Position numbers and translations under genes: made by a program. A stretch of DNA of 64,000 nt from contig CP068257.2 in assembly GCA_009914755.4 (NCBI GenBank), positions 25,248,001 through 25,312,000 of the forward strand, in the 5' to 3' direction. Below the pieces are notes generated by a model. The model saw nothing but the letters and a program-made list of their open reading frames with translations, ran no database searches and was not told the origin of the DNA. This document shows, in pieces, positions 33,601-58,158 of the stretch. The stretch's first letter is position 1; every line of letters starts with the position of its first letter. This stretch comes from the human T2T-CHM13v2.0 reference genome, Homo sapiens.

Positions 33601-34472
33601 AATACGATTTTTTTCCTTTTAAATTTCCAACACAAGGAAACTAGTTTTTAGACTCTTGAGTATGATCACACACACACACGCAAACCCTACTTCTACATCT
33701 GAAATTATGCATTAATTTGGCTAGCTACCTGAAAAAAATACAGGCAGTCAAAGGTTTTAAGTAAATGAACCCGTGTATGTATTTAAGTGACTAGATACAC
33801 TGAGATCTATTTACTTTTCAAAATTTCTCAGAAGATACTTGCTGTCAAAATGGTTTTTTGACTGAAATTTTATCTCCTGTAGTCAGAAAATATACTACAT
33901 CTTATTAAAACAGCAGCAAGTTCTTAATTTCCAGTAAAATATCCACAGCTCTTTCTGGAAACGGAAGGAAGTTGAAATAGCTGCAGACCTACTTTGGTCA
34001 AACACTTTTTTTATAGAAATATATATGGATATTTTAATAGAACCAGGGGATATAAAGTGACATACCAAGGGAGAATGTATTTACAAACAGTAAGAAGAAG
34101 CTACTGTGTATTATGGGTGAAAATGATTATGATACCATTAAAGACATTCTATCAGAGGTAGGTGACAAGGGGGAGACAGTTCTGCCATCTTCAAATGTCC
34201 CCTGATTTTACATTCATCAGTGTTTCTTGTAATCCCAGGGGATGTTCAATAACTCCCAAGTTTTTCTATATTGCAAGGTCACCACTGTCACGTGAAGCAG
34301 TGCACATCCTCTTTTGGTCACAGAGAGCAGATTCTGCCCATAATTGGACTCCTGTTGACAATGTCACTGAAGCATGACTTTCTGTGCGTTAGGTAGACCT
34401 CCTGTTCACCACGACTGCATCGGTGCTGAATCCTCCAGTTATCTTTGTGCATAAGATCATAACCACAGGCTA

Positions 34473-35037
34473 ACATTTCTTCAACAAGCATTGCTTAAAC
34501 GCAGAAGGCCTTTGGGAGAGAGGACATCCTTTTGCTAACTTCCGGTTTCCATCCTGGCACTGCACCGTTCTGGTGTGCCAACCTGTGTCACAGGTCCTAG
34601 AGCAGGCGAGCCATGGGCCCGTGACCCACTGCGGCTGCGAAGTGTGTGATCCCACTTTATTGCTGCCATGACTAGTGACAGAGTTTACTTTTGGAGTGGA
34701 CTTCTTGGGAACAAAAAAGCTATAACGGACATCTAATGGTTTAGTGGGGTCTGTTGCAAGAATCTGCACTATTAGAATTTCCTTCGTGGCAGAGTAGCCC
34801 ATGCCATGCAGGAAGTCATCCCTGTGGCTCCAACCGCTATAGTTCATGACTGTTCCATTGATGTCAATGATAGTCTCTGAAGTGGAGATCATGTACTTTC
34901 CATTGATAAGGTACTCACCGTTTTTCTTTTTCAGGGCTAAATAGGCAGTGAATCTAGTCTGGTCTTTGGCTTTGAACTGTCGAACTTTTATGTGGGTTGC
35001 CCCTTCAGGAATCCTCACCACGTCAGTGTAACCCTTA
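34473..35037 (-). CDS. ADAMTS exon (565 nt) for the spacer domain plus a complete second TSP1 repeat: (S)KGYTDVVRIPEGATHIKVRQFKAKDQTRFTAYLALKKKNGEYLINGKYMISTSETIIDINGTVMNYSGWSHRDDFLHGMGYSATKEILIVQILATDPTKPLDVRYSFFVPKKSTPKVNSVTSHGSNKVGSHTSQPQWVTGPWLACSRTCDTGWHTRTVQCQDGNRKLAKGCPLSQRPSAFKQCLLKKC. An in-frame TAG follows at 34472-34470.
   Basis: The acceptor is cttcctgtgaacattcctacttccag|T, with AG at 35039-35038. The first nucleotide completes AG+T, which is Ser, from the previous exon. The sequence is collinear with the ADAMTS1 spacer GYHDIITIPTGATNIEVKQ...YSGS...KYTYFV, followed by a W..W..CS.TC..G TSR. The 5' boundary is secure. The 3' boundary is uncertain: it is either the stop at 34472-34470 or a weak donor AAAT|GTTAGC at 34474. 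Confidence 0.75.
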
Positions 35038-36467
35038 CTGGAAGTAGGAATGTTCACAGGAAGTGGGGGAAGGTGGTTAAAAAAAGGGAGAAAAAAATGA
35101 GTAAACACTTAACAAATAAATACACAAACAGAAGTTCTCTAAAAAGTCTTCTCTTAACACACAGTTTTAATGGATTAGTTTAAAATTGGGTTTAAAAATT
35201 ATTTTTTATGAGAAAATTGCAATTATACTACAGTATTGTATACACTTTAATTGAGGTGTTCAAAATTAGGATGATGCTAGCAACCTGCCTTCATTTAAAA
35301 CATTTATACTAACTTTCAAGATTTATACAACCATTTTCATCCTTATCAGATCCTATCATCTTTACAAATCTACTTTCCATTCTTTCTGGCACAAAATGGG
35401 ATCTGTTTAAACACAAACTGACAAAAATATGCCTTCACTTAATCTCACATAATTCTTTAATATTTCTCAGATTGCTTCCACATTAGAATCACGTGGGGAT
35501 CTTTTAAATCTTTCAGAGCCTACCCACACCTCAGACCAATTAAATCCCCATCTTCCAGGGTCGGGCACAGTCAAGAGCACTTTTGAAACTTCTCACATTG
35601 TTCCAATGTGCAGACTAACTTGGGAACACAGAATTAATTAGTTTTTGGACTAGAGGTGAGTAGAGTCTCTGCATTCCTTTCTACTAGAATTCTGGATTTG
35701 GTGGGACAGGCCATAAATGAAGCATGCAATTCTGAAATTGGGTAATGATATTACTAATACCATCATAAAAGGGGAATTTTTTTAAATGACTTAGAGAATT
35801 TTTCTGAATTCTTAGTGCCCATAAGATACGATAGATTGAGAAAGGCTTTATGGTGAGTGACATATAAGTCTTCAAAGAGCCATCATCTGGACAAAAAAAT
35901 GGGGAAAGACACAAATATCTTTAATACCCATAAACCTGTGAGGAATGCTAGGATGGAAATGCTAATTAAGCACCAAGGGTGAAATGACGAGTCAACTTTT
36001 GTCCACATTTTTGCCTTTTTAAGTAATTTCATAATAGGGTCCCTTCACTTTCCTAGTTATTTAAACAGGAATACTATTGGCTTGAGCAGTTTGACTGACG
36101 TGTGGAGCTGAACTGTCTCATTTCCAGTTCTCATTCACATGCTAAAGATCCAAGTGTGTTTCCCTTACTCCAGAGTTTCCTCTGAATTGGAAAGGAAGCT
36201 TATCGCCAAGGAAGTCCCCTGTCTGCAGGGCAATCTGTTCTACAGTGACAGCCACACAGGTGGTAAAGCTTCCTACAGTGTTGAAGAGAGATGATGCAAT
36301 GCTCAGGGCGTTCCTTATTCTGTCTAACTCGATTCATTATTTTTATTTTTGTAATACATTACAGATCAGATTTTGTTACAGATGTGTTTTGTAGTACCTA
36401 ATATTAATAAATAATCCATGAAACTATAGTGGCTTCAAAGAAAGTCAAAAGGGATGTTGGAGAATTC

Positions 36468-36680
36468 CTCGAGGTCAGGAGTTTAAGAGCAGCCTGGGAA
36501 ATACAGGGGAGGCCTTGTCTCTACAAAAAGTAAAAGAGTTAGCCAGGGATGGTGGCGCATGCCTATGGTCCTAGCTACTGGCAAGGCTGAAGTGGGAGGA
36601 TCGCTTTAGCCCAGGTCTTGGCTGCAGTGAGTGCACCACTGCACTCCAGCCCGAGTAACAGAATGAGATCCTGTCTAAAC
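36468..36680 (+). mobile_element. 5'-truncated Alu.
   Basis: It runs gaggtcaggagtttaagagcagcctgggaaatacagg...agccagggatggtggcgcatgcctatggtcctagctactggcaaggctgaagtgggaggatcgc...ccactgcactccagcccgagtaacagaatgagatcctgtct. Confidence 0.85.
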
Positions 36681-36802
36681 AGAAGGTAGTTGGAGATAAA
36701 TATAACATCTTACACAAAAAGAGTATGAAATGGGGATATATGACAGTATTTGAACAAGTTCACTTTAGAGCTGATTAGTGGCAGTGTTAGGCTTAAAAGC
36801 CA

Positions 36803-37103
36803 GGCTTGGCTGGATGCCGTGGCTCACACCTGTAATCCCAGCACTTTGGGAGACTGAGGCAAGGGGATCACCTGAGGACAGGAGTTCCTGACCAGCCTGG
36901 CAAACATAGGGAAACCCTGTCTGTACTAAAAATACAAAAAGTAGCTGGGCATGGTGGCCCGTGCCTCTAATCCCAGCTATGCTGGAGGCTGAGGCAGGAG
37001 AATCGCTTGAACCTGGGAGGCAGAGGTTGCAGTGAGCCAAGATGGTGTTATTCCAGCCTGGGCAACAGAGTGAGACCCTGTCTTAAAAAAAAAAAAAAAA
37101 AAA
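36803..37103 (+). mobile_element. Full-length Alu with a poly-A tail.
   Basis: It runs ggctggatgccgtggctcacacctgtaatcccagcactttgggagactgaggc...gcaacagagtgagaccctgtcttaaaaaaaaaaaaaaaaaaa. Confidence 0.95.
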
Positions 37104-38997
37104 GCCAGGCTCTTGACTCCCAATTAGCGCTCTTTTTCACTATGTCCCCAGGCATAAAATCCTGACCCCTGCCAGCCATATGTTATAGCAGTTAAATGAA
37201 ATTAAATTCTGGTTATGTGCAGAGTTTAAATGATGCCCAGTAAGGAGTAAGTAAAATAAAGAATAAAGGGTAAGGGAAGCTTTTTTGGGTGTTTACCCTT
37301 GTTCCTTAGAGCTTATCTCATCTTGATGAGAATTAGTATGATGGTCAGTATTGCTGCAGGTCTTCAAACTGAGTTTCACAAGCACTAGTAAACCTGAGTA
37401 TTAGTGCCCTGATTTTTTAGTGCCTTAGTAAGAGATGATTCTCTTGATATTCCTGATTCCTTTTCTTTACATCCTGCTTGGTATCATTTAAACTCCAGAC
37501 ACTAACCAGCTTTCCCGACTACCATAAGTGAATGCAATTTTCATACAACTCTTACAAAGTATGGCTGGCAGGGCAAAGGAATCTTGTTTTGTTCAGGGCT
37601 ATCTGCACAGTGCCAAGGACAATGTCTGTCATGAAAAAATATATTCATTTATATTCAAGCATGCTCTCAGGGAAGGGATGTTTTAGTCCGCTCCCAGCAA
37701 ACAAAATATGTGGTGATATCAATTGATAAGAGCTGTGAAGAAACGGAGTAAGGTAAGAAGTTGCACAGTAGTGGTGGGAGTGGAGGAGATGTCCTCTTGT
37801 ACATTTACGGTAGCCTCCATCTGGGGAGGTGATATTTGACAGAGACCTAAAGAGATTCTGGAAAGTGTACTGCTCATTAATAGCAGAAAGTGTTCCAGGC
37901 AGAGGAAACAGCATTCTCATACCTGGTGTCATGTTTTTGAAGTGCAAGAAAGTGCATTCTGGTCAGAGCAGAGCATGAGAAAGGGACAGTGTAGAAAAGA
38001 CATAGAGGAGGGAAGGGGCCAGATCTTTTAGCACCTTAGAGATTACAAAACAGTCTTGGGTATTGAGTCTAAGTAAGATGGAAGCCACTGGAGGCTACTG
38101 ATCAAAGGAATGCAATGATCTGGTTTAGGTAATAGCCATGGCTTCCCTTGCTTGGTAAGATGAGATTGAGGAGCAAAGGATCCAGAGGTCAGCGAGAAGA
38201 CTGCAGTGTTAGTCCAGGCAAGATCTGATGAACACTTGGATTGCGGTGGGAGCGGTCACGGTGGTGAGGGGCACCCAGATTCTGGAGATGTGGTGGAAAT
38301 AGAACTGACAGGATCTGCTGATGGATGGATGTGGGGTGTGAGAGAAAATGAGACGTGAACCATGCCTCCAAAGTTTTGGCCTCAATAGTAGAAAGACTGA
38401 GTTGCCATTTACTGAGATGAGGAAAACTGAGGGAGGAGCGAGTTAAGATTAGGGTCATATTGTGAATGGGCTTAAAATTGATGAAATATTTTAATATGTA
38501 TTACCTCATTTCACCTTCACAACAGTTTTATTAACCATATGATAATAATTACCAGTATTTCCACTTTACTTTTGAGAAATCTCCTGGTAAAGAAATTAGG
38601 TGACAATTCAAAGATCACATGTCTAAGGAATCATTGAGCCAAAGCTTGATTACAAATATTGCAGTATGAGATCAATGTTCTTTTTCATAAATCATATAAA
38701 TTACTATGGCCTCCCTAGGTAATTAATTTGAACTACTCAAACATGTCATTTGTACCATAGTAGAATCTTGGTCAAACCAATTTTCAGGTGGTTACATTGC
38801 ATACCACTTGTTGCTATAATGAATTTCTTCTTTTTCATGTGAAAAAATGTGCAGATATTAGTTGTCAGCACAAAAATACTTAAAATGCTAAATTTAGCAA
38901 TTTTAAAACTGGTTTATAACTTTATATAGAAGAGAATATGTACCATAAAGTGTATAAGGTATTACTTTTTAAAAGTAGTTTTGTTTCTAATTTGATT

Positions 38998-39167
38998 CCT
39001 GAATTCCCTCTCTCCCTCCTTTCCTTTTTCTTTCCTTCCTTCCTCTTTCTTTCTTTCTCTTTCCTTTGTCTTTCTTTCTCTTTCTTTCTTTCTTTTTCTT
39101 TCTTTCTCTCTCTCTCTTTCTTTCTTTCTCTCTTTCTTCTATCTCTCTTTCTTCTTTTTTTTTTCAA
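38998..39167. repeat. Long (CTTT)n/(CT)n polypyrimidine microsatellite of about 170 bp.
   Basis: It reads ccctctctccctcctttcctttttctttccttccttcctctttctttctttctctttcctttgtctttctttctctttctttctttctttttctttctttctctctctctctttctttctttctctctttcttc...tttttttttt. The Lys/Arg/Glu-rich ORFs at 38922..39167 and 38938..39186 are translation artefacts of this tract. Confidence 0.95.
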
Positions 39168-40298
39168 AGTGACCTGTGTATTCTAGGATTTCAGTTATGG
39201 TGTCTGCTCTTCTCTGGCATTCATCAGCCATGGATAATTGGCTAACTCCTATATTTTCAGAGTCCAACTCATTTTTAAAACAGAAGGTTGGACTGATCAT
39301 CTCCAAGGTGTTTTATACCTTTGAAACATATAAAAATGCAGGATATAATTGGGCATGCAGGGTTTTTGACATAGATGGTCTAACACAATTAGGTGAATAA
39401 TTATTTCATTAGCAAATAGAATTAGTAACGCATATTTTAACTCAGAATAAATTTTTCAGCCATATATTTTCAAATCACATCAGAGAAAATTTATAGTTTT
39501 TTACATTAACATGTTTAATTATTTTAATAAATCCTATTGTTAATTTCGTTTGCATATTACTCTCAAGTTACAGACAACACAGCACGTACATCAAGAATAC
39601 AGATACATTTGACTAATAACACTCAGCCTAAGAGTGGTTTGGGAAGAAAAGCAAGCCTGTATTTTACCAGACTCTAGTCAACTCAGTCATCCTACCTGAT
39701 AGCATATTTTATGCCGGAAATTGGTACTTCATAAACTTGAATATTTAAAGCAAAAATCTAGGACCATAAGAGGAAGCAGGAGAGAGACACTGCTGTATAT
39801 ATTTCTTTAGAGAGTAGATATAAACCAGGATACTTCACTGTTGCCCACACCATTGCAATGAACTTACATTTTGCAAGGGGAAATATTTTCTTAAGGAAAA
39901 CACAGTGTAAGGATAATTTGTTTTTAAAAATATAGTTAAGATCAAAACCAACCAACCTTCCCTAAATTATGTTTTAGGAATAACACTAGATCTGCAAGAT
40001 ATCACTAAAGTGGAATGTCCCCCACTTTTTCTTTTCAGTTTTCTGACTCTACAAGCTATTGATTCCCATGGCTACTGCAGTTTATCTGCTTCCAGAGGCG
40101 GCATGAGTTTTCCCTGAGCAACCAGAGTTTTATTCATCTCCTGTCTCTTCCTTCTCATATTTAAAATGTGTTTCTAGAGCCACGTTAGACCTCCTCATAC
40201 AGATAGCTTATGATGTAATATGAATCCTCCTTTATCAATTTTGCAAGAGTCTAAAGCTTTGTTCAATTCACATAAAGACAAAGGTTCTATCATATTAC

Positions 40299-40474
40299 CT
40301 TTTCTTATTAAAGGTTCCAACAATCTTTGTACAGCTGGAGTTGTCTCCTCCACATACTCCGCACTTGTCATACTGCAGCTTTGAGCCAATGATGCCGTCA
40401 CAGCCAGTTCTCACACACTTCCCCCGGACGCAGACGGAATTACTGTACGGCCTACATTCAGTGCCATCGGTCAC
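40299..40474 (-). CDS. ADAMTS exon (176 nt) for the second part of the cysteine-rich domain: [58 protein letters not shown](S).
   Basis: The acceptor is atgattcag|GTG, with AG at 40476-40475. The donor is AAA AG|GTAATA, with GT at 40298-40297. It carries the hallmark ADAMTS motif [13 protein letters not shown], and ADAMTS1 has [14 protein letters not shown] at the same place. Confidence 0.9.
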
Positions 40475-41449
40475 CTGAATCATGGCAAATGCATTAGGAG
40501 TGGGAAATGTTTGCATCAGTATTTGCTCCTTTGGTCAACTAGTAAGTTCTCATTTGTGATTTTTTGAGTTTGATTGGTATGGACAGTCCATTGAAAAAAA
40601 AAAAAAGCCAAAAAAACATAGTTTCCAGAAGTAGCTAACTGAAAAATCCTTGGCATATTGCCAGAAAGCAGATTTTGGATAAGCCTAGGTTACACATTTT
40701 CTCTCTTAACCTTACCTCTGAATGTGTTAAGAGACACAAGGTACTCATCTTCGTTTTTGTATGCATAATACATTCTCACTAGAAGTAATCTTTTCACTTA
40801 GTGTTTCAGACTATCATTTGTGTGCAGAACTGAATATGAGCAGGCTTGAGAATGCAAAGATCCTTCTTTGTTGCATAGTTGTTATTATAATGACAAATTT
40901 GAAAATCTAAACTTGACATTCAAAACTGTGTCATGGTTGGAGAGCATTCCCTATTGTGTGTTGAACTGTCAGACACTGAAATCGACACAACCAAATTAGT
41001 ACAGAAAAAGGAGTCTGGGGAAGTTAGATGAACGGACTTACTGGAAGAGACTGAATATATTTTGAATAAACGGATTAGTGTATAGTTTAAAAGCTAGTTA
41101 TAAAACAGTGTGTATATAGATTGTGGCTTGTGCATGTGAGTATATGTAATATATATACACTCATATATATAAATAAGCCTGTAAATTTTATATTTATGTA
41201 TATAGAAAACTCTTTTTATGCATGTGTATGAGTATGTTGTGAATGCGTGTGTGTGTGAGTTGAAGTAGAATATACTTTATCAGGTTAATAGCTCTGTAGA
41301 TGGTGGTATTTTCAGGTGATTTTTATGTTTTTACTTCTGTGTAATATTTTTGAATGAAAATGCATTATTTTCTAATAAAAACATGAGCTTTAAAAAATTT
41401 CATAAATTGACATTAGCTTGTTTTTCAATAACATATTATAAATATCTGA

Positions 41450-41758
<309 letters not shown>

Positions 41759-42157
41759 ATAGGTGATTTTAAATGTAGCAACTGTTTACAAATTTGTAAA
41801 TTGCTGTATAACACTGACCATAAGAATAAAACTCTGCTATAGATTTAGAAAATGCTCACTTGTGAAAAATAAGGCATGTTCCATACACAAATATTATACA
41901 CATACACAAGGATTATAACATATATAACTAGAGGGACATTGATTCATATTAAGGGTTCTTGACTTATTCAAAAGCCTGAGTCAGAGGTATATGATCTTGA
42001 AACCCATCTCCACGGCTCATCAAAGGAATTCTTAAGTAAATCATAGAAAAATAGAAAAAGTTTTCTTGCTTTATGGTCTCCTTTACAATGCTGCTTAGGA
42101 AATACTAGTTGTTTTCATGGTTACTTTAAAGTTAAGGTCACACTTTGCCTTCCTTGA

Positions 42158-42195
42158 CAGTGAGTTACACCTTTTACAGTGAGTTACACCTTTTA
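42158..42195. repeat. Perfect 19-bp tandem duplication (cagtgagttacacctttta x2) in the intron, about 220 bp downstream of the first cysteine-rich exon.
   Basis: The unit occupies 42158-42176 and is repeated exactly at 42177-42195. Confidence 0.95.
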
Positions 42196-42417
42196 AATAT
42201 AGCTTTTAAAACATTTACTTGTTCTGTTTATAAAATAATTTTTATTCATTGTGTAAAGTTTGAAAATATAGAAGTTATAGAGATGAAAATAAAAACCTTC
42301 CAAAATCTAACTGACCCCAAACTAATAACTGTTTACGTCTGGCGTCCGCAGGCTTCATTCTACCAAATAATTTCCACCAGTACGCCTACTGCTTCTGGAC
42401 AGTTGGTGTGTAGTTAC

Positions 42418-42593
42418 CTTTGGAGAAAATACCACATAGTAGCCAGTGCCCTTGGCTCTGCAGGTCAGCTTGCACACATCCGCTGGCAGGACACCTGCAT
42501 ATTTGGGAACCCATTCCACAAAAGTTTTGACTCCTTTTGCATCAGACTGATAGCCATTTTTGGCCTCACACTGTTCATGACGAAATGATTTAC
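42418..42593 (-). CDS. ADAMTS exon (176 nt) for the first part of the cysteine-rich domain: (G)KSFRHEQCEAKNGYQSDAKGVKTFVEWVPKYAGVLPADVCKLTCRAKGTGYYVVFSPK.
   Basis: The acceptor is tttctag|GT, with AG at 42595-42594. The donor is AAG|GTAACT, with GT at 42417-42416. The sequence is collinear with ADAMTS1 GKTFREEQCEAHNEF...[35 protein letters not shown]. The 147-aa plus-strand ORF at 42145..42588 is the antisense shadow of this exon. Confidence 0.9.
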
Positions 42594-42825
42594 CTAGAAA
42601 ACAAACATGTTTCAGTATTACCTTATCAGTTCTGAAACTTAGATATATTCTTGTGGGTTTAAATAGTTAATTTTAAGGGGAAGATGCAAACGTGTTTTTT
42701 TTATCCCACAGTCTCTTTACTCACCAATGCTGATGGATTTTATCTATACATAGAGTTCAAAATGGTGATTATTTATTCCAATTCTCTGAATATTGCTTAT
42801 AATAAAACTTAAAAATCACATATGT

Positions 42826-43135
42826 GGCTGGGCGTGGTGCCTCATGCCTGTAATCCCAGCACTTTAGGGGGCCGAGGAGGGTGGATCACAAGGTCAGGAG
42901 TGTGAGACCAGTCTGGCCAACATAGTGAAACCGCGTCTCTACTAAAAATAAAAAATAAAGAAAAAATAACCAAGTGTGGTGGTGTGCACCTGTAATCCCG
43001 GCTACTCAGGAAGCTGAGGCAGGAGAATCATGTGAACCCAGGAGGTGGAGATTGCAGTGAGCCAAGATTGTGCCATTGCACTCCAGCCTGGACAACAGTG
43101 TGAGACTCCATCTCAAAAAAAAAAACAAACAAACA
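42826..43135 (+). mobile_element. Full-length Alu in plus orientation. It fills most of the 687-bp intron between the TSR1 exon and the first cysteine-rich exon.
   Basis: It runs ggctgggcgtggtgcctcatgcctgtaatcccagcactttagggggccgaggagggtggatcac...cattgcactccagcctggacaacagtgtgagactccatctcaaaaaaaaaaacaaacaaaca. Confidence 0.95.
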
Positions 43136-43280
43136 CATAGGTGTTTGTTATTGATCTGCATATTGGTGGAACTGTGCAGTATAAGATTAATATTATTTCC
43201 CCAGCTTCCCTTATTCATTATTGCTAGAATACAAATGACATGTAGCATATGATGGTTGCTGACACTTGGGAGCAGCGTAC

Positions 43281-43464
43281 CATTGGGTGGGCAGGGCATG
43301 AGACTGCAGGAGCGGTAGATGGCCCTCTTCCCTGTGCAGTAGCGTCCGTTGTTTCTGGGAGCAGGGTTATTACAGTGACGATAGGCAAACTGCACTCCTC
43401 CTCCACATGAGCGAGAACACTGGCCCCAGGATCCCCAAGATCCCCAGTTGCCATGGCTTGACGT
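43281..43464 (-). CDS. ADAMTS exon (184 nt) for the central thrombospondin type-1 repeat: [61 protein letters not shown](G).
   Basis: The acceptor is tttcag|ACG, with AG at 43466-43465. The donor is AAT G|GTACGC, with GT at 43280-43279. The WxxWxxWxxCSRxCGGG motif is present. The entry phase is 0 and the exit phase is 1, consistent with the neighbouring exons. Confidence 0.9.
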
Positions 43465-44885
43465 CTGAAATAGAGAATAGAATATATTTTAACTCCAATG
43501 AGAGAAAAACATTGAAAGTGTGCATTTGGAAATCACCTGCATTTAATGACAAAGTGGAAACTTTGTCACAGATACAGTTATATTTTCACTGAATTTAACA
43601 TGATCATGCTTTGGAAATGCAACACATTTCCAGTGCTAAGCAATTCATCTTTTCCACCCTCCCAACTCCAGCACTAGAAGATCTGAAAGCATCATCCTAA
43701 GTACTGAGCACACCACAAAGATTATCACCTTTTGGTTTCTACGGACCGTTGTAAATTATGTCTTCTAATATGGTCCATCTCTGTTAATATCACTGAACCA
43801 TGGTAACTTTTTGTCCACTCTGATGTTGGATCTTTATTGAAACGTATAATGCTGAAGGATCTGCATGGCACTGGGCATTATTTAATTGTGTTTGCATCTC
43901 TTCAGCAGTAAAACTCTGCAGTCCCTTTGTTGACATCCCACATCCTGTCTGTGACTGACTCCATGACGTTCATAAATGTACCGGACCCAACTTGGCTTAA
44001 TTCCTAATTAGATGTGACAGATACTGAAATGCACTCACGCCATACATGCAGACACACCCCTTAGGGAAGGAAGAGCCCTTTTATGGCAACCTAAGTCTGT
44101 TTCTCTGGAAACATTCCTGGAGGGAGCTTAGAGATTCTGAAAGGAAGAATATGATCAGCTGCTTTGCTGAGGGAATCTGTGAATTGCCTCTGGCTGACTG
44201 TGTCAGGTTATCTGATGATGAATGGTTGGGTGATGCCCTGGAAAGATACAGGCAATGGGCACAGGATAATTCTCTTCTAGGGACTTTGCAAATCTTGTGG
44301 GTTGAGAGCGAGCACTTATTTTACTTAGGCCTCGAAAATTAATAGGGCAGTTGCTGACCTGAAGCTGGACTGTGTATATAGTGGCAGACGTGTTTCCCCG
44401 GAGCAGTCATAAGTTACTTTAGCTCCTAAATTTAGATTAACTTATTGTCAAGGGGAAAAAAGTGACCATTTGGAGCTCACCAAATATGTACAAGCACCAC
44501 ATGTATCGGCTCTGCTATTACCTCCTTACTGAATTTAAATACTTATATTCTGATAACTTTAGCAAGAGAAGCTTGAAAGTAAACTTCCCAAAAGCAATTA
44601 ATAGGGTCCTACCTGAGGTCTCAATTAGACAGAATCTGAGTTACATAAGTATTTGTTAAAAGATGTAAACTGCAAGTAAATTCCCAGTATCTGCATTTTC
44701 CCCAGTAAATCTCGGATCACTGAGAATGGCTACTGCGGGTAAAAGAAGAAGCTCTAAATAAACCTCAAAATGAAAAGTTTTTAAATTAGAAAATAAAGCC
44801 TTCTGAGAACAGTGCCCATACCCATCACAAGAATGCACTTCACTTCTTGGGCCTCCAGGCATTGACTGATGAGAAAATCACTTAC

Positions 44886-45169
44886 TGAATAATATTTTTT
44901 CTTGGTTTTGTCCACACATTTGCCCTGCAGGCAGATTCTCCCCTTTCCACAAGGCGTCCCTTCCACCGCAGGCAGCTTCTTGGTCAGACAGACCATCTGG
45001 CCCTGGCGTACCACAGCACACCACAGGCGAGCACAGACATCCATGCCGGGACACACGGAGTACTCAGGCCCGAATGTCAGGTTGCACTGCTGGGTGGCAT
45101 CGTAGGTCTGTCCTGGGAGTTCTTCGGGGCCCAGGATCTGCTTTCGTGGTAGGTCCAGCAAACAGTTAC
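44886..45169 (-). CDS. ADAMTS exon (284 nt) for the start of the disintegrin-like domain: (G)NCLLDLPRKQILGPEELPGQTYDATQQCNLTFGPEYSVCPGMDVCARLWCAVVRQGQMVCLTKKLPAVEGTPCGKGRICLQGKCVDKTKKKYYS.
   Basis: The acceptor is tcagttattcttgtag|GT, with AG at 45171-45170. The first two nucleotides complete the Gly codon begun by the last G of the previous exon, giving DDGHG-NCLLD. The donor is TCA|GTAAGT, with GT at 44885-44884, and is a perfect consensus. The sequence is collinear with ADAMTS1 [40 protein letters not shown]...CINGKCVNKTDRKHFD. Confidence 0.9.
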
Positions 45170-45519
45170 CTACAAGAATAACTGAGATTGACCACGGCTC
45201 TGTGTTTAGGTTTCAAACCGCTAAAATCATGGATCTAAAAATGAAATGCCCCGGCTGGTGTTGGAGCACGAGGTACCCATGAATCTGTAGTGTAATGCTC
45301 TGGAGAGGGACTCCATGGGGACAAGGCTGGGAGCCCCCTTGGACGCACCAGACCCTCCAGGGTTCTCAGGAGTGATGCGCTCCGGAGTGTCTGTAACAAC
45401 AGAGGTGAGGTTGGCAGGGGTGTGATGGAATAAAATGATTCTGTAATGATTAGTTGTGAAAATAGCCCTTGTGCTAAGGCACTAAACAAAATTGGGATGG
45501 ACCTAGAGAAAATCAGATG

Positions 45520-45556
45520 GTGAATTTTAATAATAATAATAATAATGATAATGAAG
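45520..45556. repeat. (TAA)n microsatellite.
   Basis: It reads ttaataataataataataatgataatga. Confidence 0.85.
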
Positions 45557-48381
45557 CATTTACTCTACCACTTTGAGAAACAGAGTTTGTCCTTGGCACT
45601 CTATCTGTATAACCCATTACCCATTTCTAACTCACCCCTTCCCCATGTGCCTATCACATGTCTCCTTTCCACTAATTCCATAAATAATAGCCAAGCTGGC
45701 TCCTCATTCATTCTTACAGTCACTCGACAAGCATTTGTTCAGCACCTACAATGTTCTAGAAAACACACTAGGTATCTGAAATACAGAAAAATGACCCAGA
45801 TCTACCTTTGAAGGCCTTCCAATAAAGTCACAGAGATAAAGTATTTCTCTCAGACTGATATAATTTTAATAAAAAGTTTTCAAGATTCACAGAACAAAGG
45901 AGCAGTGAAAAAAGAAAAAATAGTCTTTGATAATTTAGGATTAAGTTAGTCTTTATACTCTTTGCTTTATGTCTATTTAATGGAATTGGTGTTTGTTGAG
46001 TATTTGGATCTATCTGCCGAAACAAGGTAGGCATCTCATTGCATCATATATGAGGGTGTACAGGCAGAGGGGTGAGATGGGGAATCCACAAAAGCTGGAA
46101 CATGGACGATGAGAATCCAAAACCTTAAATTTGCTTCCTCTTCCTCTCCTTCCCCTCCCCGCAAAAGCTTCCCTAAGAATCCCTGTCCGGTGAGTTAACA
46201 TCATTAATTTTCTTTTGTCACCCACATATGCATGCATATTGCCCATCTGTTTCTGTATTTTTCTGTTTACTTTATTTTAGGATTTACACAATTATTATAA
46301 TAGCAATAAAATAACAAATATTTGTTACACACACTATTCTCCATTCTTTACATATATGAGCTCATTTAATCCTCACCACAACCCCATCAGGCAGATTCTA
46401 GTGCATATTTTATTTATCCTACAGATAAGGAAACTGAGGCCCATAGGAGGCAGACCAGTTACCCAAGGTCACACAGCTGTTATGGTTTCATGCTCAGAGC
46501 CTGCCCTTTTCTTCTGATGCCATATGGCTTCTGTTAGCATGTGAGTAGCTGCCTGATTGTATTGCTGAAGGGCAGCCATGTGTAAGGATCCTTTAAGTGG
46601 TAGATATTGAGCTTAATGGAAGAAACACCCAGTCTGAAGTCTTACTCTGGTGAAATACTAAATGGTTGAGTGCTCCTGGCTAAGTTAGCTAACCTCTCCC
46701 TAATTTATTTTCAAGATCTGCATAATGCTTCTCTTCTCACTGTGATACTGTAAATGTGAAATTAGCTAACAAAGATCTTAAGGGTGACCAGAAAAATACA
46801 AAGCAATGGTAGTTGTATCCCAGTATATTTAACAGCCTTTTAGATGTACTACAGTTATTCTTTTTATTCAACAAAAAAGTCATATTCAAATCCTTATGTG
46901 CCACTGAGAAATAGAATATTCAGCATATTTTAAGTATACTGTAAATTTTTAAGGACTACATTCAAATTTCTTCAAAGTGAATACCTTAGAATTTGTCAAT
47001 CTGTGTTGGGGGCATTATATAAAAATGAATAAAGAGCAAAGTTCCTATTTAACTTCTGAGCCAGAACGTTTGAAGAGGTAAAGCTTCTTAAGGCAAGCCA
47101 GAAAAAGCATTAAAAATAAGAATCCAGCCAAAGAGAACTTTGGGAGAAAAACACCAAGTTAAAAGAAAAACACGAACATCAAGCCGATAGGAAAGAATGA
47201 TAGTAAAAGCTCACTAAGCTTTGTTTATAAGACAGAGTGCGATTAGGGCTTCAGAACTCCACGAAAAACATTATCTTCATTGCAGAATCAAAAAAGAAGT
47301 ACTGTGTAAACTAGGGGATGCTTGGCAGATTGCTGATGTTAGAAGACTGTCAACAAATCTCTGAGTCTGCAATAATGTTTTCCAGTTCTTCAAAAGTGCT
47401 GTTTTAAGAAAGTTTTTAAAAAAAATTTTACTAAAAAGCACAGACCATAAGACTGGGTAACTAAATATTAGCTAGGAAGTCTTTACCATGTGTGCATGCA
47501 CATGGCATGGATCTATCTCATTTTTCTGGAGTCAAAATAACTCACCACCTGACTATGCATACACAGTCACTGACACCTGTTCTACCTCACTAGTAGATGA
47601 CAAGTGAAAAAGAAACGTGTAATGCAAACAATTTGAAATCGGCTTCCAACAAGGAGACTTCAAGATGTGGCATCTCTTTAAAAAGCTTAACTTAGAACTG
47701 TAAGTTTTAAAAATAAATAACACATTAGCTTTCTATTCAAAATAAGATATATCAGCTCTATAATTTTCCCTTAGAGGTCATACATGTGGAGATGATCTTC
47801 TCTTGCTTAAAATAAAATAATTTATTTCAGAATTGCAATTAATGTGTTATGCCAATGTTCTCAGTACTAGGATTTGTAGCTGCATCAATTTCTGTTTATG
47901 CCAAAGCATATATAATTTAATTTTTACATTGAATTATGTCCTTTTGCAACAAAATAGGTACAAGCATCTCTACCAAATGGCAGAATGGTGCCAAGAAACA
48001 GTAACAAAAATCAATACAGAGCCTAAGTCTGAAACTCACAGTATAAAATGTTTAAAATCTAAGTAATAACAGATTGGATATACATTTTATATGTTTAAGA
48101 AATGTATACAGTTTGGGGAAGGAGTAAAAGGGGAAACTGATCAACCTTTCAGTATCATTTCTAGTGAGCTCTAGAGGCATCCAACCTAGTGCTGATTTTT
48201 TTCTTAATCTGTTTTAATTTTATTCTCAACCACTTCTTCACATCTACTTCACATATTTTCTAATTCATCGTAGTCTGAAATTTGATCTGGATCTTCCTGG
48301 GAACACTTTGACCCTTCCCTCCTTCTTCCTTTTGTTTTAACATTGTATATTTATAAATGGATAGACTATAAAATAAAGTCA

Positions 48382-48735
<354 letters not shown>

Positions 48736-48936
48736 TCATGTTAAACTAAATGCTTAAAATAAGGCAAAAAAATAAAAAGTAAAATGTTGTGATTTGAGGC
48801 GAACCAGTAAGAAAATGTGTTGGCAGAATTCCACTAAAGGTGTTTGAAGGAATGCCACGCCTCCAGGAAATGGAACAGAAAAATCTCTAGTTTCATATGT
48901 CTGACTTATAGCACTATTTGTCTCTCATATTAATGA

Positions 48937-49252
<316 letters not shown>

Positions 49253-52200
49253 TCTCAAAGTTGTTGTTCTTTATTGTTTTCAAATTTTTCTTCCCTATTT
49301 CTAGCACTAACATTATTTCCATCTTCTCTTCCTTTTCAATATGCAGGTATGAAATTAAGCATGACCCAAATATTCATGATGCAGGAGAAATCAATTAATG
49401 TTCCTAATCAAACTCATCCGAAGAAGCCTAACACCACTGCTTACAATCTCCCTTTGCTTCCACTCTTCATCTCACTGCCCTTGCCCCTCAGCTTTTAGGT
49501 CTTTACTTGAATGTCTAATGTTAAAAGAAAAATGGGTGCATTTGCCTGCTCTTTGATCACTCATTCTGGGCCCAGTGATATAAGAATGAACAAGAGCACT
49601 TCAAAAAACCAGACAATTGTTGTCAAAAAGCAATTCAAGGGGTCTGGGTATGAAGCTGTTAGATGCATTAGGTATACTGTTGAGCAGATGTAATGGCAAG
49701 GAAATTAAATTAAAGATTCCCTGTGATAGAGGATAAAGGAAAGTTTTTAAAAATATAAGTCACCGTGGCCTTAAACTATATGTCTTATTTTCACACTCTA
49801 TTAAAGAGCATATTTAGTATGAAAATCAAGATACAACCATAGTGTTGGCTTTGAATTTTATTAATGCCACCTTAAAAACTGATGTTAAGCTCTCCTGGCT
49901 AGCTTTAGTCTATATACTTAACAAAAGATTCAGAGAACTGGTTTTCCAATATCATTTTATGTGCAAAGTTCTGTGTTCAGTAAGTGGCTGTAAACTTAGC
50001 TCTTTACACTACATGACGAATTTTCAAAACCATCCATAGATTTTCCTTAGCAACCTGTGTTGTGAGTGTTCTTGAGCTGTATCTACATAAGTCATGGCCT
50101 TTCTCATCATCTGGCACTGTGGACTCAGGGATACAGCAGACACAGCTATCTTTTCTGGACTCAAGGTTAGTAAACATTTGAGAAAGGAAATTCAATAACC
50201 TGCTTTCACTGCACAATTTCTTTGCCAGTGCTTACCTTTATTTTTGAGGATCATACTCCTAGCCAGCTTGCCTAGAGCTAGCTTGTATAAACACTGCAGA
50301 ATGTCTACAAGTATCTTGGCCAAGGTTGGGAGGAGGGGGGTCCCATGAGACATGGCTTCTCCTTTTCTGAATCACAAATCTGCAGACACAGTGACTTTAG
50401 AGTGAGCACGCTGGTTTTTCAACCATAACCTAATTGCTGCATATTTCTTGTTGGAACTAAATCAGGAAACACTCAGTACTAATGAATTTACATTTGGCAG
50501 TGGACGAGTGCTACAAATGTCCAGCTACTTATGGCTAATAATTTTAAAAATAAATCAAATGCTTTGAATTTAACTTTACTCTCCGACCTCATTTCTCCAG
50601 TATTGCTGAAGGTGAGAGGGGGTGGGGTAAGATATTAGACATAAATGGAATTCCCATTTATAATGTACTCTTTAGGTACCATTGAAAAATTGTATATGTG
50701 TTGTCAGATTACCTGCTTAAAAATAGCAAATTGCTTTTCTGCCTTTATACTAGTCACAGTTTAACTTTCCTAGATAACTGAAAGTCATTTTTTTCTGTGT
50801 GTCAATTATTGTATCATGCTGAAATATAGCACTAACTTGAGGGACCATGTTGGTGAGATAGGGCTTTTGACCTTTAGAAAATGGTACCAGACCACTGTGC
50901 CTTTCATGTTTTCAGGCTATTTATAGCCTTTCTCTTATTGTTAAATAATATCATTTCTTGTTCTCAGATTACCTGTCTAAAGTCTCCCCACCCTCATCCA
51001 TCATGACTATTTTATTGCTTAAAAAAATTGAGTGGCCTAGAAAATTAGAACAGAAAAATGGTAGAACTGTAAAATACTAATAAATGGGCTCTGAGTGGAA
51101 GCCTGTGTAGCTTTCTATGAGTAAAGTTAAAAGGTTTTATAATATAGTTTTGTGACATCGTTTAGTCTTCTAACAAAGATGCATCTTTGTTATTCTATCA
51201 TCTTGGACTGTGACTGTCTTCTTAGTTCTCTCCCATGCTCTGTAGTTGAAATGTTAGCACCTCAATCATCTCTAAAGTGGGTTTGGTAGTTTCTATGGCC
51301 ACACTTTCACTTACATTGACTTAAGTGAGCTTTTTGGTTACATTTTAAAAGTTATTAAGTTATTTCAATTCATCTTTAAATAATAGCACTACAGGGAGTA
51401 CCACTGTTTCAATTCTGAATCTGAGTATGCTCTTTTGAAACAAAGTAAGACAGACATAACTGAGCTTTGTCATTGTGCCACACTGCTTTTCTTTGGTTTT
51501 TGTTATTCTGAAATCACTTTATTCATGTTATAAGCTACTGATAAAATAGGATTATTTTTATTGAAACAAAAGGCTGCCTAACCAAACCAAGATATTCAAA
51601 AGTGAGAAAGTCTAGATTGGATGAAAAAAATCAAATAAGTAAACTATAAGCATTTTCTGCTCAAGGAATTTTGATAATTGAATTTATTTAATATATATAC
51701 ATGAGAAATTTAGATACTTTTTTATTAGTGCAAATGAACAAGATCTATTTCTATTAAAATTATGTTCTTAGTTGTTCTCTATCATGAGCCCTTTGGAACA
51801 GAAACAGAGATATAAAAATATGTAAATTTGTTATAAAATCTTTAAAAAATCAGAGCATAGACTCTTTTAAATATAGAATTAATGTTAAAAATGAAGACAA
51901 TGCTGAAAGCATATTTACTGCATAGAAATTAAGATCACAAATTCCATAAACATGAAATAAATGAATCATTCCAAAATTAGGAACAAAATTCTCCACAGCA
52001 TTGTAATTAGCTGACCTAATATTTGCACAGGGAAAAAAATTTGGTCTCATTTTAGCCATAAGTATTTGCTGCCTTAGCAACTAAATCCATTCATTTAGTG
52101 ATTCAAGGTTTAGCTCAACTTCTTGGAATGTGTAACGTGTGATTTTGAAATAAAATATTAATGTTATTTTATTTTCAGAAAACCTGAAAAGAAGTAAAAC

Positions 52201-53805
52201 AGAAAAGCAATATTATACGTGGAGACTTAAGATTCCACCCAAGAAGGACTTTATGAGATACCGACCTGATCAATGTAGATAGGATGATAGTAAGGTAACA
52301 TTCATTTTAGGACTTTATCTGCATTTAATCCACAATGTAAACTGAGCTAAACATAAAATTACCATTGTATTACTGGTCTAAGGAAAAAGCTTCATACGTT
52401 AATTCTTATTGTTGTTTCCAAGTCTTTAAATTATTGACATATTTTTTCAACTAAAAAGGAACTTTTTTTTTGTATTGAGATATATTTTAAACCAAGCTGG
52501 ACTCAGATTGCTTTTCAAAATGAGACAAGCAAATATATAGTAACAGGCAGCTAAAGCCTTACCTGTTCACCACGAATGGAGCAAGAATGGGTTAATGAAC
52601 ATATTTTGACTCCATGGTATCAGAGAACTGTGCAGCTGAATTTCTTTATGTCTGAAATAATTTGAGTTTGTCCATTGTTCTGGTATTATGTAGCCACAGT
52701 TCAAAACAGTCAACATACTAAAAAATTATGGGACATTGAGTCATAAACTTTGTGGAACTGGGAAAAAGACGGTTGTCATAGATTATTCAACTTTGAACCG
52801 TATATCATGAGGTAATTTTATAGAAAATTATTATGATCAATAATTTCTGTCACATTCAATTTAACTACTAGTTTTAGAAACACAAATTTTAAGAGAACAT
52901 AAAATAAATGAGAATATGTCCATTTCTGTAACATAGGAAATTTCAGCTACATAATGTCTGATGATTCTTTAGAGTGCTAATGCATCTATCCTCCTGTGTT
53001 TTTATTACTTTAAAGTACTGAAGAATGCTTGGAAATTTGCAACAGCTTGTTTCAAAGATTACTTAGGGGTCAGAATTTATTATTTCTAAAAATTGTAACT
53101 TCCTCAGTATTTCAATGTAATTTACAGCACTGATCCTAGTCTTACAGAATTTAATAAAGTATGTTGTGCTCTTGAACTATATTTGAAGGATAAAGCCAAA
53201 GATTTTCTTTTGAAGTTCTTAAAGTGTTTTCCCATCATTCAGATTGCTTTTCTATTTCTGTTATGCAGTTTTTACTCTACTTTCAGGAGAATCTCCTATC
53301 AGAATAAAACCAAATTCTTCTAGTCAGTGCAAATCTAGAAAGCTTCCTCTTCTGGGCTTATGTTGCCATAAAGAGAATCCAGTAGAATTGTCACCTACAC
53401 CTTAACTGCACCCCTATAATAGGCATGTAACAAATAATTCTGAGAGTCATATTAATAGCAGGGAAACCAAGATGTCTGCCAAAGTTCTCACAGGAAGCTA
53501 GTGGTAAAAGAAGGAATAAAAGCCAGACTTTCAGGGCACTAGCTAGGCATTCTGTGTGGTCTTCCACACTGCTTCTCCTTTGAAATTTTTCAATTCAAAA
53601 GCCAAAATACCATAGCTAAAATGCCACCAAGGACGTTGGCAGTACATACCCACATATGATCAATTTTCTTGGTCTTTCTTCTGACACTATCCACACAACT
53701 ATTGTCTTAGAGGGCAAGATGAATATTATGAGGATATAATGAAGTCAAACTCCTAAGAATCCCAAATTTTGTTTCTCAGTCTGTGTTCTCCTAAATGATA
53801 CATAC

Positions 53806-53973
53806 CATGGCCATCATCCAGGAATTCTGTGATGGTGGCTGAAGTGCATTTGGACCAGGGCTTAGATGCATCAATGCTGGTAAGGATGGAAGACATTAAG
53901 CGCTTATCTTCTGTGGAACCAAAGGTCTCTTCACAGAATTTGGAATCGTCATGGGAGAGGCCAAGTAAATGTC
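53806..53973 (-). CDS. Coding exon (168 nt) of an ADAMTS-family zinc metalloprotease. It covers the C-terminal part of the catalytic domain: (HELG)HLLGLSHDDSKFCEETFGSTEDKRLMSSILTSIDASKPWSKCTSATITEFLDDGHG. This completes the metzincin motif HExxHxxGxxHD and includes the Met-turn region (RLMSS).
   Basis: Stop-free minus-strand frame. The acceptor is ctgttgtctcccttag|GA, with AG at 53975-53974, and the exon enters in phase 1, so an upstream exon must end ...CAT GAR YTN G to give HELG. The donor is GGC CAT G|GTATGT, with GT at 53805-53804. The translation aligns with ADAMTS1 HVFNMPHDDAKQC...[20 protein letters not shown]. Confidence 0.85.
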
Positions 53974-56900: not shown

Positions 56901-57837
56901 GTAGGGATTGTGAAGGGGAATTGGAAAAGCTAATAGCTTTGAAGACATCTGCCTTTTCAGGGAGAGTTTGTTCATAAATCATTCACAGAGATGTTTAAAA
57001 TGAATGGTGTGGTTTGGAGATTAAGCATTTCTTGGACAAGCAGACCCCAGGAGCATTAGCAGCAGATAGGATTAGATATCCCTGTCTCAGAGAGTAAAAC
57101 AGCACATGAAGAATATAAAAGAGTGTGGAGAAAATGTGTACAATGCCAAAAGTAATTTGTTGTTTACATCAAATTGTATTACATGATGAGTTTTTAGAGC
57201 AATACAGAGCAACAGAGTTAGTTGAGGGTGAGGTTTTAGAGGAGGCAGGGGGATGGAATCGAGAAATCCACATAGAATGGCAATCCTTACCCTTGGAAAA
57301 AGAGAAAGAGTTCTTTTTTGGAGAGTCAGAGTGTTGCAAGAGAAGGGTGGGGAGGACTGAAAGCCATTTTGACAGAGATCTGAGGAAGCTCCCTCACTAA
57401 AATAGGACGTGAAACTCCTAGTGAGAGAAAAGGCAGAGGTGGGTTTCGAGGTAACTATCTGCTGTCAGGATTTAAAGCAGAGGTAGTGAAGTCTTGCTTT
57501 AGGGAAGAATTAGTGTTTGTGTTTAGGACCATTTATAATCAGCAGACATGCAAAAGATCGAAAAGCAGTTTGCTTGAGCAATTTTGTTTACAATACTCTT
57601 TCTCAGCTATCTTTAATTCTTGATGATGTAATTGGAAGCTTTTCACCTAAAACCCTGAGGCAACTAAGGACCAAACACACTTGTGTAATAGATGCACTTG
57701 TTAATGACCTCTGTATTTATATGCTAAATAGGGTTTTAACTGGGGAGGGGAGATAGAAGCCAGAGTGAAATTCAGAGAATAATGCAACTGTCTAATCCAC
57801 GAGTATTTTCCAAGCGGTGCCTACCTCAGAACTATAT

Positions 57838-58158
<321 letters not shown>

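What the first reader, a model, noticed from the sequence alone, without database searches (positions are those of the whole stretch)
34473..53973. Six consecutive coding exons of an ADAMTS metalloprotease on the minus strand, paralog unresolved
The six exons have canonical splice sites and consistent phases. Together they reconstruct about 517 aa that are collinear with ADAMTS1 from the zinc-binding site, through the disintegrin-like domain, TSR1 and the cysteine-rich domain, to the spacer and TSR2. The Zn-site sequence HELG|HLLGLSHDDSKFCEE does not match the aggrecanase-type HELGHVFNMPHDD, nor the HEIGHNFGMNHD types I associate with ADAMTS6/10. The region spans more than 19 kb with introns up to 8.6 kb and is followed by at least 34 kb without exons. 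That fits a large-intron paralog such as ADAMTS17 or ADAMTS19 better than the compact ADAMTS9/20 genes. This part is inference only. The HELG exon is not in the window: I searched the minus strand of 54000-64000 for CAY GAR YTN G followed by a donor and found nothing in the right phase.
Basis: partly seen in the sequence, partly recalled or inferred. Interest (0 to 1): 0.55.

Follow-up and report, generated by a model that had tools for sequence, protein, structure and literature searches.

The report
Human ADAMTS5 gene, exons 3-8
The six exons are real, but they are simply the last six coding exons (3 to 8) of the well-known human cartilage-degrading protease gene ADAMTS5 (aggrecanase-2) on chromosome 21, not ADAMTS17 or ADAMTS19, so the finding is ordinary.

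Summary
Six minus-strand exons (53973-53806, 45169-44886, 43464-43281, 42593-42418, 40474-40299, 35037-34470), all with AG/GT borders and matching phases, join into one 518-aa frame.

The paralog is ADAMTS5. The translation is 100% identical to two solved ADAMTS-5 chains: 2rjq_A over 216 residues and 9rwm_A over 183. Its roughly 96 best database relatives are nearly all named ADAMTS5. Other paralogs (ADAMTS15, 8, 1, 4, 13) reach only 42-47% identity or much lower scores.

Thirteen published human ADAMTS5 SNP assays map exactly and collinearly, which places the window at about chr21:26.89-26.95 Mb. Their missense, 3'UTR and intron labels all agree with my exon map.

The last exon ends in an in-frame TAG, directly after the second thrombospondin repeat. 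The "34 kb without exons" is therefore the 3'UTR (about 6.1 kb) plus intergenic DNA, not a giant intron. The guess of ADAMTS17/19 and the remark that the zinc site is "not aggrecanase-type" are both wrong. The unseen motif half is HEIG in orthologs, not HELG. Exons 1 and 2 lie beyond the window.

This is a known gene, and nothing here is new.

The parts
53806..53973 (-). ADAMTS5 exon 3 (168 nt, phase 1 at both ends). It encodes residues 413-469: the end of the catalytic domain with zinc ligands His414 and His420, Asp421, and KRLMSS, the probable Met-turn region.
   Evidence: Acceptor ...tctcccttag and donor gtatgt. 100% identical to 2rjq_A ADAMTS-5. The Pfam Reprolysin C-terminus matches aa 1-64. 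Predicted isoforms of three other mammals skip exactly this block (HEIG|NCLLD), which independently confirms both borders. Residue numbers assume the 930-aa human protein (own knowledge) and are consistent with Arg614 and Pro692 falling at the two published missense SNPs.
44886..45169 (-). ADAMTS5 exon 4 (284 nt). Residues 469-563: the disintegrin-like domain.
   Evidence: Borders ttcttgtag / gtaagt. Pfam ADAMTS_CR_2 E = 2e-22 at aa 75-142. 100% identical to 2rjq_A across both junctions.
43281..43464 (-). ADAMTS5 exon 5 (184 nt). Residues 564-625: the central thrombospondin type 1 repeat (TSR1). It contains the missense SNP rs2830585 at window 43313 (Arg614 codon).
   Evidence: Borders ctatttcag / gtacgc. 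Pfam TSP_1 at aa 160-209. 100% identical to 2rjq_A. The rs2830585 primers map exactly. PMC6265622 places this SNP in the first thrombospondin domain.
42418..42593 (-). ADAMTS5 exon 6 (176 nt). Residues 625-683: the first part of the cysteine-rich domain.
   Evidence: Borders ttttctag / gtaact. Pfam ADAMTS_CR_3 at aa 216-319. Gap-free 96-97% alignment to mammalian ADAMTS5 proteins across the exon 6|7 junction.
40299..40474 (-). ADAMTS5 exon 7 (176 nt). Residues 684-742: the end of the cysteine-rich domain and the start of the spacer. It contains the missense SNP rs226794 at window 40449 (Pro692 codon here).
   Evidence: Borders gattcag / gtaata. 100% identical to 9rwm_A ADAMTS5 from aa 282. The rs226794 primers map exactly. 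PMC6265622 places rs226794 in exon 7, which fixes the exon numbering as 3-8.
34470..35037 (-). Coding part of ADAMTS5 exon 8 (last exon). Residues 742-930: the spacer, a Ser/Thr-rich linker and the C-terminal TSR2, then the TAG stop at 34472-34470.
   Evidence: Acceptor cttccag. Pfam ADAMTS_spacer1 E = 1e-25 and TSP1_ADAMTS E = 1e-13, the latter reaching the last residue. 100% identical to 9rwm_A. All full-length orthologs end at the same ...CLLKKC.
28335..34469 (-). ADAMTS5 3' untranslated region, about 6.1 kb. The start is shown; the 3' end is inferred.
   Evidence: rs151065, annotated 3'UTR, maps to 34422, 48 nt after the stop. Published 3'UTR variants reach c.*5689 (PMC8306068). The window base fits at c.*2229 and c.*5689 but not at c.*1033. 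The end is inferred from AATAAA at 28357-28352 and from my recollection of the annotated gene end.
28352..28357 (-). Candidate polyadenylation signal AATAAA (c.*6113), with an ATTAAA 33 nt upstream.
   Evidence: This is inference only; no transcript data are available in these tools.
53974..64000 (-). 3' part of ADAMTS5 intron 2. It runs off the window; exons 1-2 lie beyond 64000.
   Evidence: Four SNPs annotated as ADAMTS5 intronic map to 54923, 60613, 62662 and 63869. Two further intronic SNPs would fall at about 64,370 and 68,930, and their primers are absent from the window. There is no tblastn signal for the N-terminal part of the protein.

Best explanation
The region is the 3' two-thirds of the human ADAMTS5 gene (chromosome 21q21.3, minus strand): coding exons 3 to 8 of 8, followed by its long 3'UTR. 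ADAMTS5 (aggrecanase-2) is a secreted zinc metalloprotease of the reprolysin/M12B type. It cleaves the proteoglycans aggrecan and versican, among other substrates. The exons here encode residues 413-930. That stretch covers the last part of the catalytic domain, including two of the three zinc-binding histidines (HEIG|H414LLGLSH420D) and the probable Met-turn region. It continues with the disintegrin-like domain, the central thrombospondin repeat, the cysteine-rich domain and the spacer (ancillary domains that, as far as I know, contribute to substrate and matrix binding), and the single C-terminal thrombospondin repeat. The protein then ends. Shown here: exon structure, identity, domain content, genomic placement and the stop codon. 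Taken from the literature: the enzymatic function. Inferred: the 3' end of the UTR.
For: Six exons with canonical borders join into one 518-aa frame. phmmer against PDB sequences gives 100% identity to ADAMTS-5 2rjq_A (query 1-216, E = 3e-153) and to ADAMTS5 9rwm_A (query 282-464, E = 2e-122). ADAMTS13, ADAMTS1 and ADAMTS4 score only 173, 147 and 126 bits. The domain order by Pfam is as expected for the family. The ~96 best proteins in a 5.8-billion-sequence database are nearly all named ADAMTS5, the rest being unnamed or hypothetical; full-length mammalian hits are 95-97% identical and sharks 77-78%. The next paralogs (ADAMTS15/8/1) are at 42-47%. Full-length orthologs hit exactly these six blocks and nothing else in the window, with contiguous residue coverage. 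All 39 oligonucleotides of 13 published human ADAMTS5 SNP assays match exactly and uniquely (682 distinct bases, no mismatch), in the right order, at a near-constant offset to chr21 of 26,889,574-587. The 2 missense, 1 3'UTR and 10 intronic labels each fall in the matching part of my exon map. rs226794 is reported in exon 7, which is the fifth of the six exons here. ADAMTS5 at 21q21 and its identity as aggrecanase-2 are from PMC4448532.
Against: Nothing substantive. The tools hold no human genome or transcript set, so the NM_007038 exon table could not be compared directly. The exon numbering rests on one literature statement plus the stop codon. The chr21 offset drifts by up to 13 bp and several SNPs carry the minor allele, so the window is probably not the GRCh38 haplotype itself. 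One of three 3'UTR HGVS positions (c.*1033) does not show either published allele at the exact base.
Confidence: 0.98

Rival explanations
1. One reading: the exons belong to a large-intron paralog such as ADAMTS17 or ADAMTS19, and the 34 kb downstream is a long intron before further TSR/PLAC exons.
For: Only the intron sizes and the long stretch without exons. No sequence evidence supports it.
Against: The reading frame stops at TAG directly after TSR2. 100% identity to ADAMTS-5 chains. No ADAMTS17 or ADAMTS19 among the 120 listed relatives, and non-ADAMTS5 paralogs are at 47% identity or less. A SNP annotated as ADAMTS5 3'UTR lies 48 nt after the stop.
Confidence: 0
2. The window is the ADAMTS5 ortholog of a non-human great ape rather than of human.
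For: The protein segments could be identical in apes. The window differs from GRCh38 by small indels and carries minor alleles at several SNPs.
Against: 682 distinct bases covered by human-designed primers, mostly intronic, match without a single mismatch. At about 1.2% human-chimpanzee divergence (own knowledge) roughly 8 mismatches are expected, giving P(0) of about 3e-4. The indels fall between anchors that flank length-polymorphic repeats such as (CTTT)n, (AT)n and A30.
Confidence: 0.02
3. A duplicated or pseudogenised copy of ADAMTS5 rather than the functional locus.
For: None.
Against: The frame is intact, all splice sites are intact, introns are present (so it is not a processed copy), and there are no substitutions relative to the expressed protein used for crystallography. 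The SNP assays map uniquely and collinearly.
Confidence: 0.005

Closest known systems
Human ADAMTS5 (aggrecanase-2, formerly ADAMTS11), chromosome 21q21.3
   Same: Everything tested matches. The protein sequence is 100% identical over the 399 residues covered by solved structures. The domain order, the termination directly after TSR2, the positions of the known missense, 3'UTR and intronic SNPs, and exon 7 containing rs226794 all agree.
   Different: Only haplotype-level differences from the GRCh38 coordinates: an offset drift of up to 13 bp and minor alleles at rs162497, rs162496 and rs162499.
ADAMTS1, ADAMTS4, ADAMTS8, ADAMTS15 (same aggrecanase/proteoglycanase clade)
   Same: The same domain order from the zinc site to the spacer. 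ADAMTS1 is the head-to-head neighbour of ADAMTS5 on 21q21 (PMC4448532).
   Different: Only 42-47% identity or 126-147 bits against 515 bits for ADAMTS5.
ADAMTS17 / ADAMTS19
   Same: ADAMTS family members with large genes.
   Different: As far as I know they carry several additional C-terminal TSRs and a PLAC domain. Here the protein stops after one C-terminal TSR. They are not among the listed relatives.

Membership tests
ADAMTS family (M12B reprolysin-type metalloproteases with thrombospondin repeats) | Zinc-binding consensus HExxHxxGxxHD followed by a Met-turn | tested here: inconclusive
   The window holds only the second half: (G)HLLGLSHDD with His414, His420 and Asp421, plus KRLMSS, and the Pfam Reprolysin C-terminus (E = 2.5e-4, above its cut-off). 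The HE half lies in exon 2, outside the window. Orthologs and the identical PDB chain carry the full motif HEIGHLLGLSHDD.
ADAMTS family | Disintegrin-like domain, central TSR, cysteine-rich domain and spacer, in that order | tested here: met
   Pfam ADAMTS_CR_2 (2e-22), TSP_1 (2.8e-8), ADAMTS_CR_3 (3.1e-11) and ADAMTS_spacer1 (1e-25), collinear.
ADAMTS5 (orthology) | Sequence identity to human ADAMTS5 protein | tested here: met
   100% over query 1-216 with 2rjq_A and 282-464 with 9rwm_A. The ~96 best hits are nearly all named ADAMTS5.
ADAMTS5 (orthology) | Exactly one C-terminal TSR after the spacer, then the stop | tested here: met
   TSP1_ADAMTS covers aa 467-518, the last residue. TAG lies at 34472-34470. 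Orthologs end at the same residue.
ADAMTS5 (locus) | Location on human chr21q21.3 with the known ADAMTS5 SNPs in the expected gene parts | tested here: met
   13 of 15 assays from PMC11348706 map exactly and collinearly. The other two fall just beyond the window end. The labels (missense, 3'UTR, intron) all agree.
ADAMTS5 (function) | Aggrecanase activity (cleavage of aggrecan at Glu373-Ala374) | not testable with these tools
   Taken from the literature (PMC4448532, PMC11348706). It applies because the sequence is identical to the studied protein.
ADAMTS17 / ADAMTS19 | Several C-terminal TSRs and a PLAC domain; highest identity to those paralogs | tested here: not met
   The stop comes directly after the first C-terminal TSR. 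No PLAC domain was found by Pfam. Neither paralog is among the 120 listed relatives.

The most novel reading that the evidence does not exclude
Exon 3 is 168 nt long with phase 1 at both ends, so skipping it keeps the reading frame. Skipping would remove zinc ligands His414 and His420 and the probable Met-turn region. Predicted ADAMTS5 'isoform X2' models of hippopotamus, Myotis and degu read HEIG|NCLLD, which is exactly that skip. A 2021 review lists alternative splicing for ADAMTS2, 4, 6, 7, 9, 13 and 17 but not for ADAMTS5. The most novel reading my evidence does not exclude is that human ADAMTS5 also makes a regulated, catalytically dead exon-3-skipped isoform that retains all substrate-binding ancillary domains. 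Such a protein could act as a natural competitor of the active aggrecanase.
Probability: 0.07. Interest if true: 0.3.

Novelty: already known. Interest (0 to 1): 0.04.

Why it matters
It matters only as a correct annotation. ADAMTS5 is a major aggrecanase and an osteoarthritis drug target, and the window holds its exons 3-8, its 3'UTR and two frequently genotyped missense SNPs (R614H, L692P). For the scan the lesson concerns method. That stop explains the stretch without exons.

Tried and rejected
I searched for the upstream exon in 54000-64000 and in the whole window, using HE[LIV]G in all minus-strand frames and tblastn with the N-terminal 386-414 residues of guinea pig, marmoset and skink ADAMTS5 at E up to 50. 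Only chance-level hits appeared (best E = 0.37).

An Rfam scan of the whole window at gathering thresholds gave no RNA family.

Pfam on five other long ORFs of the window gave no family above its cut-off. Two of them proved to be LINE-1 ORF2 fragments when compared with PDB sequences.

I tried to check the extent of the 3'UTR with three published HGVS positions. Two fit the window base and one (c.*1033) does not at the exact position. That is weak evidence either way, probably reflecting a small indel or imprecise numbering in the source.

The human ADAMTS5 entry itself did not appear as a named cluster representative; the best named mammals were at 95-97%. Species assignment therefore rests on the PDB chains and the primer mapping.

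My first literature query failed on a syntax restriction.

I did not use structure prediction, fold search or the metagenome and genome collection scans. Identical solved structures exist, and those collections are prokaryotic or viral.
Full report

The minus strand of 34,000-54,500 shows six open stretches whose translations look like an ADAMTS protease (three-frame translations). I located the borders from the flanking bases and joined the exons.

| Exon (numbering derived below) | Window coordinates | Length |
|---|---|---|
| 3 | 53973-53806 | 168 nt |
| 4 | 45169-44886 | 284 nt |
| 5 | 43464-43281 | 184 nt |
| 6 | 42593-42418 | 176 nt |
| 7 | 40474-40299 | 176 nt |
| 8 (coding part) | 35037-34470 | 568 nt |

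- Each exon is preceded by a pyrimidine-rich tract and AG. Each of the first five is followed by GT.
- With the one base of the split Gly codon supplied from the missing upstream exon, the 1,556 nt give a single frame of 518 aa.
- That frame ends in TAG at 34472-34470.
- The introns measure 8,636, 1,421, 687, 1,943 and 5,261 bp.

It did not mention that a stop codon directly follows its start coordinate.

**2. What is it?**

*Domains.* Pfam finds, in order:
- the C-terminal end of the reprolysin catalytic domain;
- the ADAMTS disintegrin-like module;
- a thrombospondin type 1 repeat;
- the ADAMTS cysteine-rich domain;
- the ADAMTS spacer;
- a second thrombospondin repeat that reaches the last residue.

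*Paralog.* Comparison with all PDB chain sequences settles it.

| PDB chain | Molecule | Result |
|---|---|---|
| 2rjq_A | ADAMTS-5 | 100% identity over residues 1-216, E = 3e-153 |
| 9rwm_A | ADAMTS5 | 100% identity over residues 282-464, E = 2e-122 |
| best ADAMTS13 chain | ADAMTS13 | 173 bits |
| best ADAMTS1 chain | ADAMTS1 | 147 bits |
| best ADAMTS4 chain | ADAMTS4 | 126 bits |

These identical, gap-free alignments run across the exon 3|4, 4|5, 5|6 and 7|8 junctions. The remaining 6|7 junction is covered by gap-free 96-97% alignments to mammalian ADAMTS5 proteins.

In the large protein database the ~96 best hits are nearly all named ADAMTS5, the rest being unnamed or hypothetical. Full-length mammalian hits are 95-97% identical, reptiles and birds 84-89%, and sharks 77-78%. 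Only after them come ADAMTS15, 8 and 1, at 42-47%. ADAMTS17 and ADAMTS19 are not among the 120 listed.

Full-length orthologs searched against the window by tblastn hit exactly these six blocks and nothing else, with contiguous residue coverage.

**3. Where is it?**

A paper on ADAMTS5 polymorphisms (PMC11348706) lists 15 SNPs with chr21 positions, gene-part labels and three genotyping oligonucleotides each. I mapped the oligonucleotides to the window.

- For 13 SNPs all three oligonucleotides match exactly and uniquely. That is 39 oligonucleotides covering 682 distinct bases without a mismatch.
- They lie in the right order, and chr21 position minus window position stays at 26,889,574-26,889,587.
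- The two SNPs that do not map (26,953,957 and 26,958,519) would fall at about 64,370 and 68,930, just beyond the window.

The labels agree with my exon map in every case:
- missense rs2830585 falls at 43313, in exon 5 (Arg614 codon);
- missense rs226794 falls at 40449, in exon 7 (Pro692 codon);
- the 3'UTR SNP rs151065 falls at 34422, 48 nt after the stop;
- the ten intronic SNPs fall in introns, four of them (54923, 60613, 62662, 63869) upstream of exon 3.

A meta-analysis states that rs226794 lies in exon 7 and that rs2830585 lies in the first thrombospondin domain (PMC6265622). Because the exon carrying rs226794 is the fifth of six here and the sixth carries the stop, the six exons are exons 3-8 of an 8-exon gene.

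With the 930-aa numbering I recall for the human protein, the translation is residues 413-930. That puts Arg at 614 and Pro at 692, as the SNP names require.

The exact primer matches argue for human rather than another ape. About 8 mismatches would be expected at 1.2% divergence. Six Alu matches confirm a primate genome. ADAMTS5 at 21q21, next to ADAMTS1, is described in PMC4448532.

**4. The stretch without exons and the missing upstream exon**

The 34 kb below 34470 are not an intron. The protein ends there, as do all orthologs (...CLLKKC).

Published 3'UTR variants reach c.*5689 (PMC8306068). The window bases at c.*2229 and c.*5689 fit the published alleles; c.*1033 does not at the exact base.

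An AATAAA lies on the minus strand at 28357-28352, 6.1 kb after the stop. That agrees with my recollection of the annotated gene end. I infer a 3'UTR from 34469 to about 28335 and intergenic DNA below that.

Upstream, no HE[LIV]G occurs in any minus-strand frame of the window, and the N-terminal parts of three orthologs give only chance-level tblastn hits (best E = 0.37). Exons 1 and 2 therefore lie beyond 64000, and intron 2 is longer than 10 kb.

Its DNA pattern could not have matched in any case.

**5. How it works**

By identity with the studied protein, these exons encode the following:
- The end of the catalytic domain of a secreted reprolysin-type zinc endopeptidase. This includes two of the three zinc-ligating histidines and the adjacent Asp (H414LLGLSH420D421) and the probable Met-turn region.
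- The ancillary domains: disintegrin-like, TSR1, Cys-rich, spacer and TSR2. As far as I know these contribute to binding of proteoglycan substrates and matrix.

ADAMTS5 is aggrecanase-2. It cleaves aggrecan at Glu373-Ala374, as well as versican and other substrates. Adamts5-null mice are protected from experimental cartilage destruction (PMC4448532; PMC11348706).

These functional statements come from the literature and were not tested here. What is shown here is the gene structure and the identity.

**6. Comparison and novelty**

This is the known gene itself, not a new member or variant.

Its paralog inference was wrong for two reasons:
- It recalled the ADAMTS4-type motif as 'the' aggrecanase type.
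- It read the gene end as a giant intron.

Interest is accordingly very low.

The only slightly unusual point concerns exon 3, which is 168 nt with symmetric phase. Predicted isoforms in three other mammals skip exactly this exon, which would give a protein without two zinc ligands. A 2021 review does not list alternative splicing for ADAMTS5 (PMC8275829). Whether humans make such an isoform cannot be tested with these tools.

**7. Other things seen**

- Two LINE-1 ORF2 fragments lie next to each other in opposite orientation at 6922-7524 (-) and 7845-8858 (+).
- There are several Alu elements.
- A (CTTT)n microsatellite lies in intron 7, and an (AT)n run and an A30 run lie in intron 2.
- Small length differences from GRCh38, together with minor alleles at three linked intronic SNPs, suggest that the window comes from a human haplotype other than the GRCh38 reference.
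- No Rfam family reaches threshold anywhere in the window.

Noticed in passing
window 6922-7524 (-) and 7845-8858 (+): Two LINE-1 ORF2 fragments lie side by side in opposite orientations. The minus-strand piece matches ORF2p residues 1076-1275 (E = 5e-131) and the plus-strand piece matches residues 158-476 (E = 2e-193). The layout fits a 5'-inverted (twin-priming) L1 insertion, or two separate insertions, in the intergenic DNA downstream of ADAMTS5.
   Followed up: partly
window 53806-53973 (exon 3), compared with P0018, P0019, P0021: Exon 3 is 168 nt with phase 1 at both ends. Predicted ADAMTS5 isoform X2 proteins of degu, hippopotamus and Myotis read HEIG|NCLLD, an exact in-frame skip of this exon that removes two zinc ligands. 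Marmoset isoform X2 (P0022) instead lacks 57 residues inside exon 4 (GPEYS|TSSHG), which suggests an internal alternative donor.
   Followed up: partly
window 34422-63869 (13 SNP anchor points): The offset between published GRCh38 chr21 positions and window positions drifts between 26,889,574 and 26,889,587. The window carries the alleles listed as variant or minor at rs162497 (A), rs162496 (G) and rs162499 (G). The window is therefore human but probably not the GRCh38 haplotype. The length differences lie between anchors that flank simple repeats.
   Followed up: partly
window 39017-39165; 59563-59624; 62107-62136; 19423-19527; 11764-11881: Simple and tandem repeats: a (CTTT)n-rich array of about 150 bp in intron 7, an (AT)n run and a 30-nt poly(A) run in intron 2, a CT-rich array, and a 59-bp unit repeated twice in the downstream intergenic DNA.
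   Followed up: no
window 14965, 15527, 36821, 41712, 48395, 58114: Six matches (3 mismatches or fewer) to a 34-nt Alu left-monomer consensus, where none is expected by chance. Three lie in ADAMTS5 introns 3-8 and one in intron 2. Another Alu-like stretch sits within 100-300 nt downstream of exon 5 (translated Alu motifs in the ORF at 43006-43395).
   Followed up: partly
window 33437 (c.*1033): The published 3'UTR variant rs229077 (c.*1033A>G) does not show A or G on the coding strand at the base computed from the stop codon; the base is C, flanked by G on both sides. The variants at c.*2229 and c.*5689 do fit. The cause is probably a 1-nt indel or numbering difference, and it remains unresolved.
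   Followed up: no
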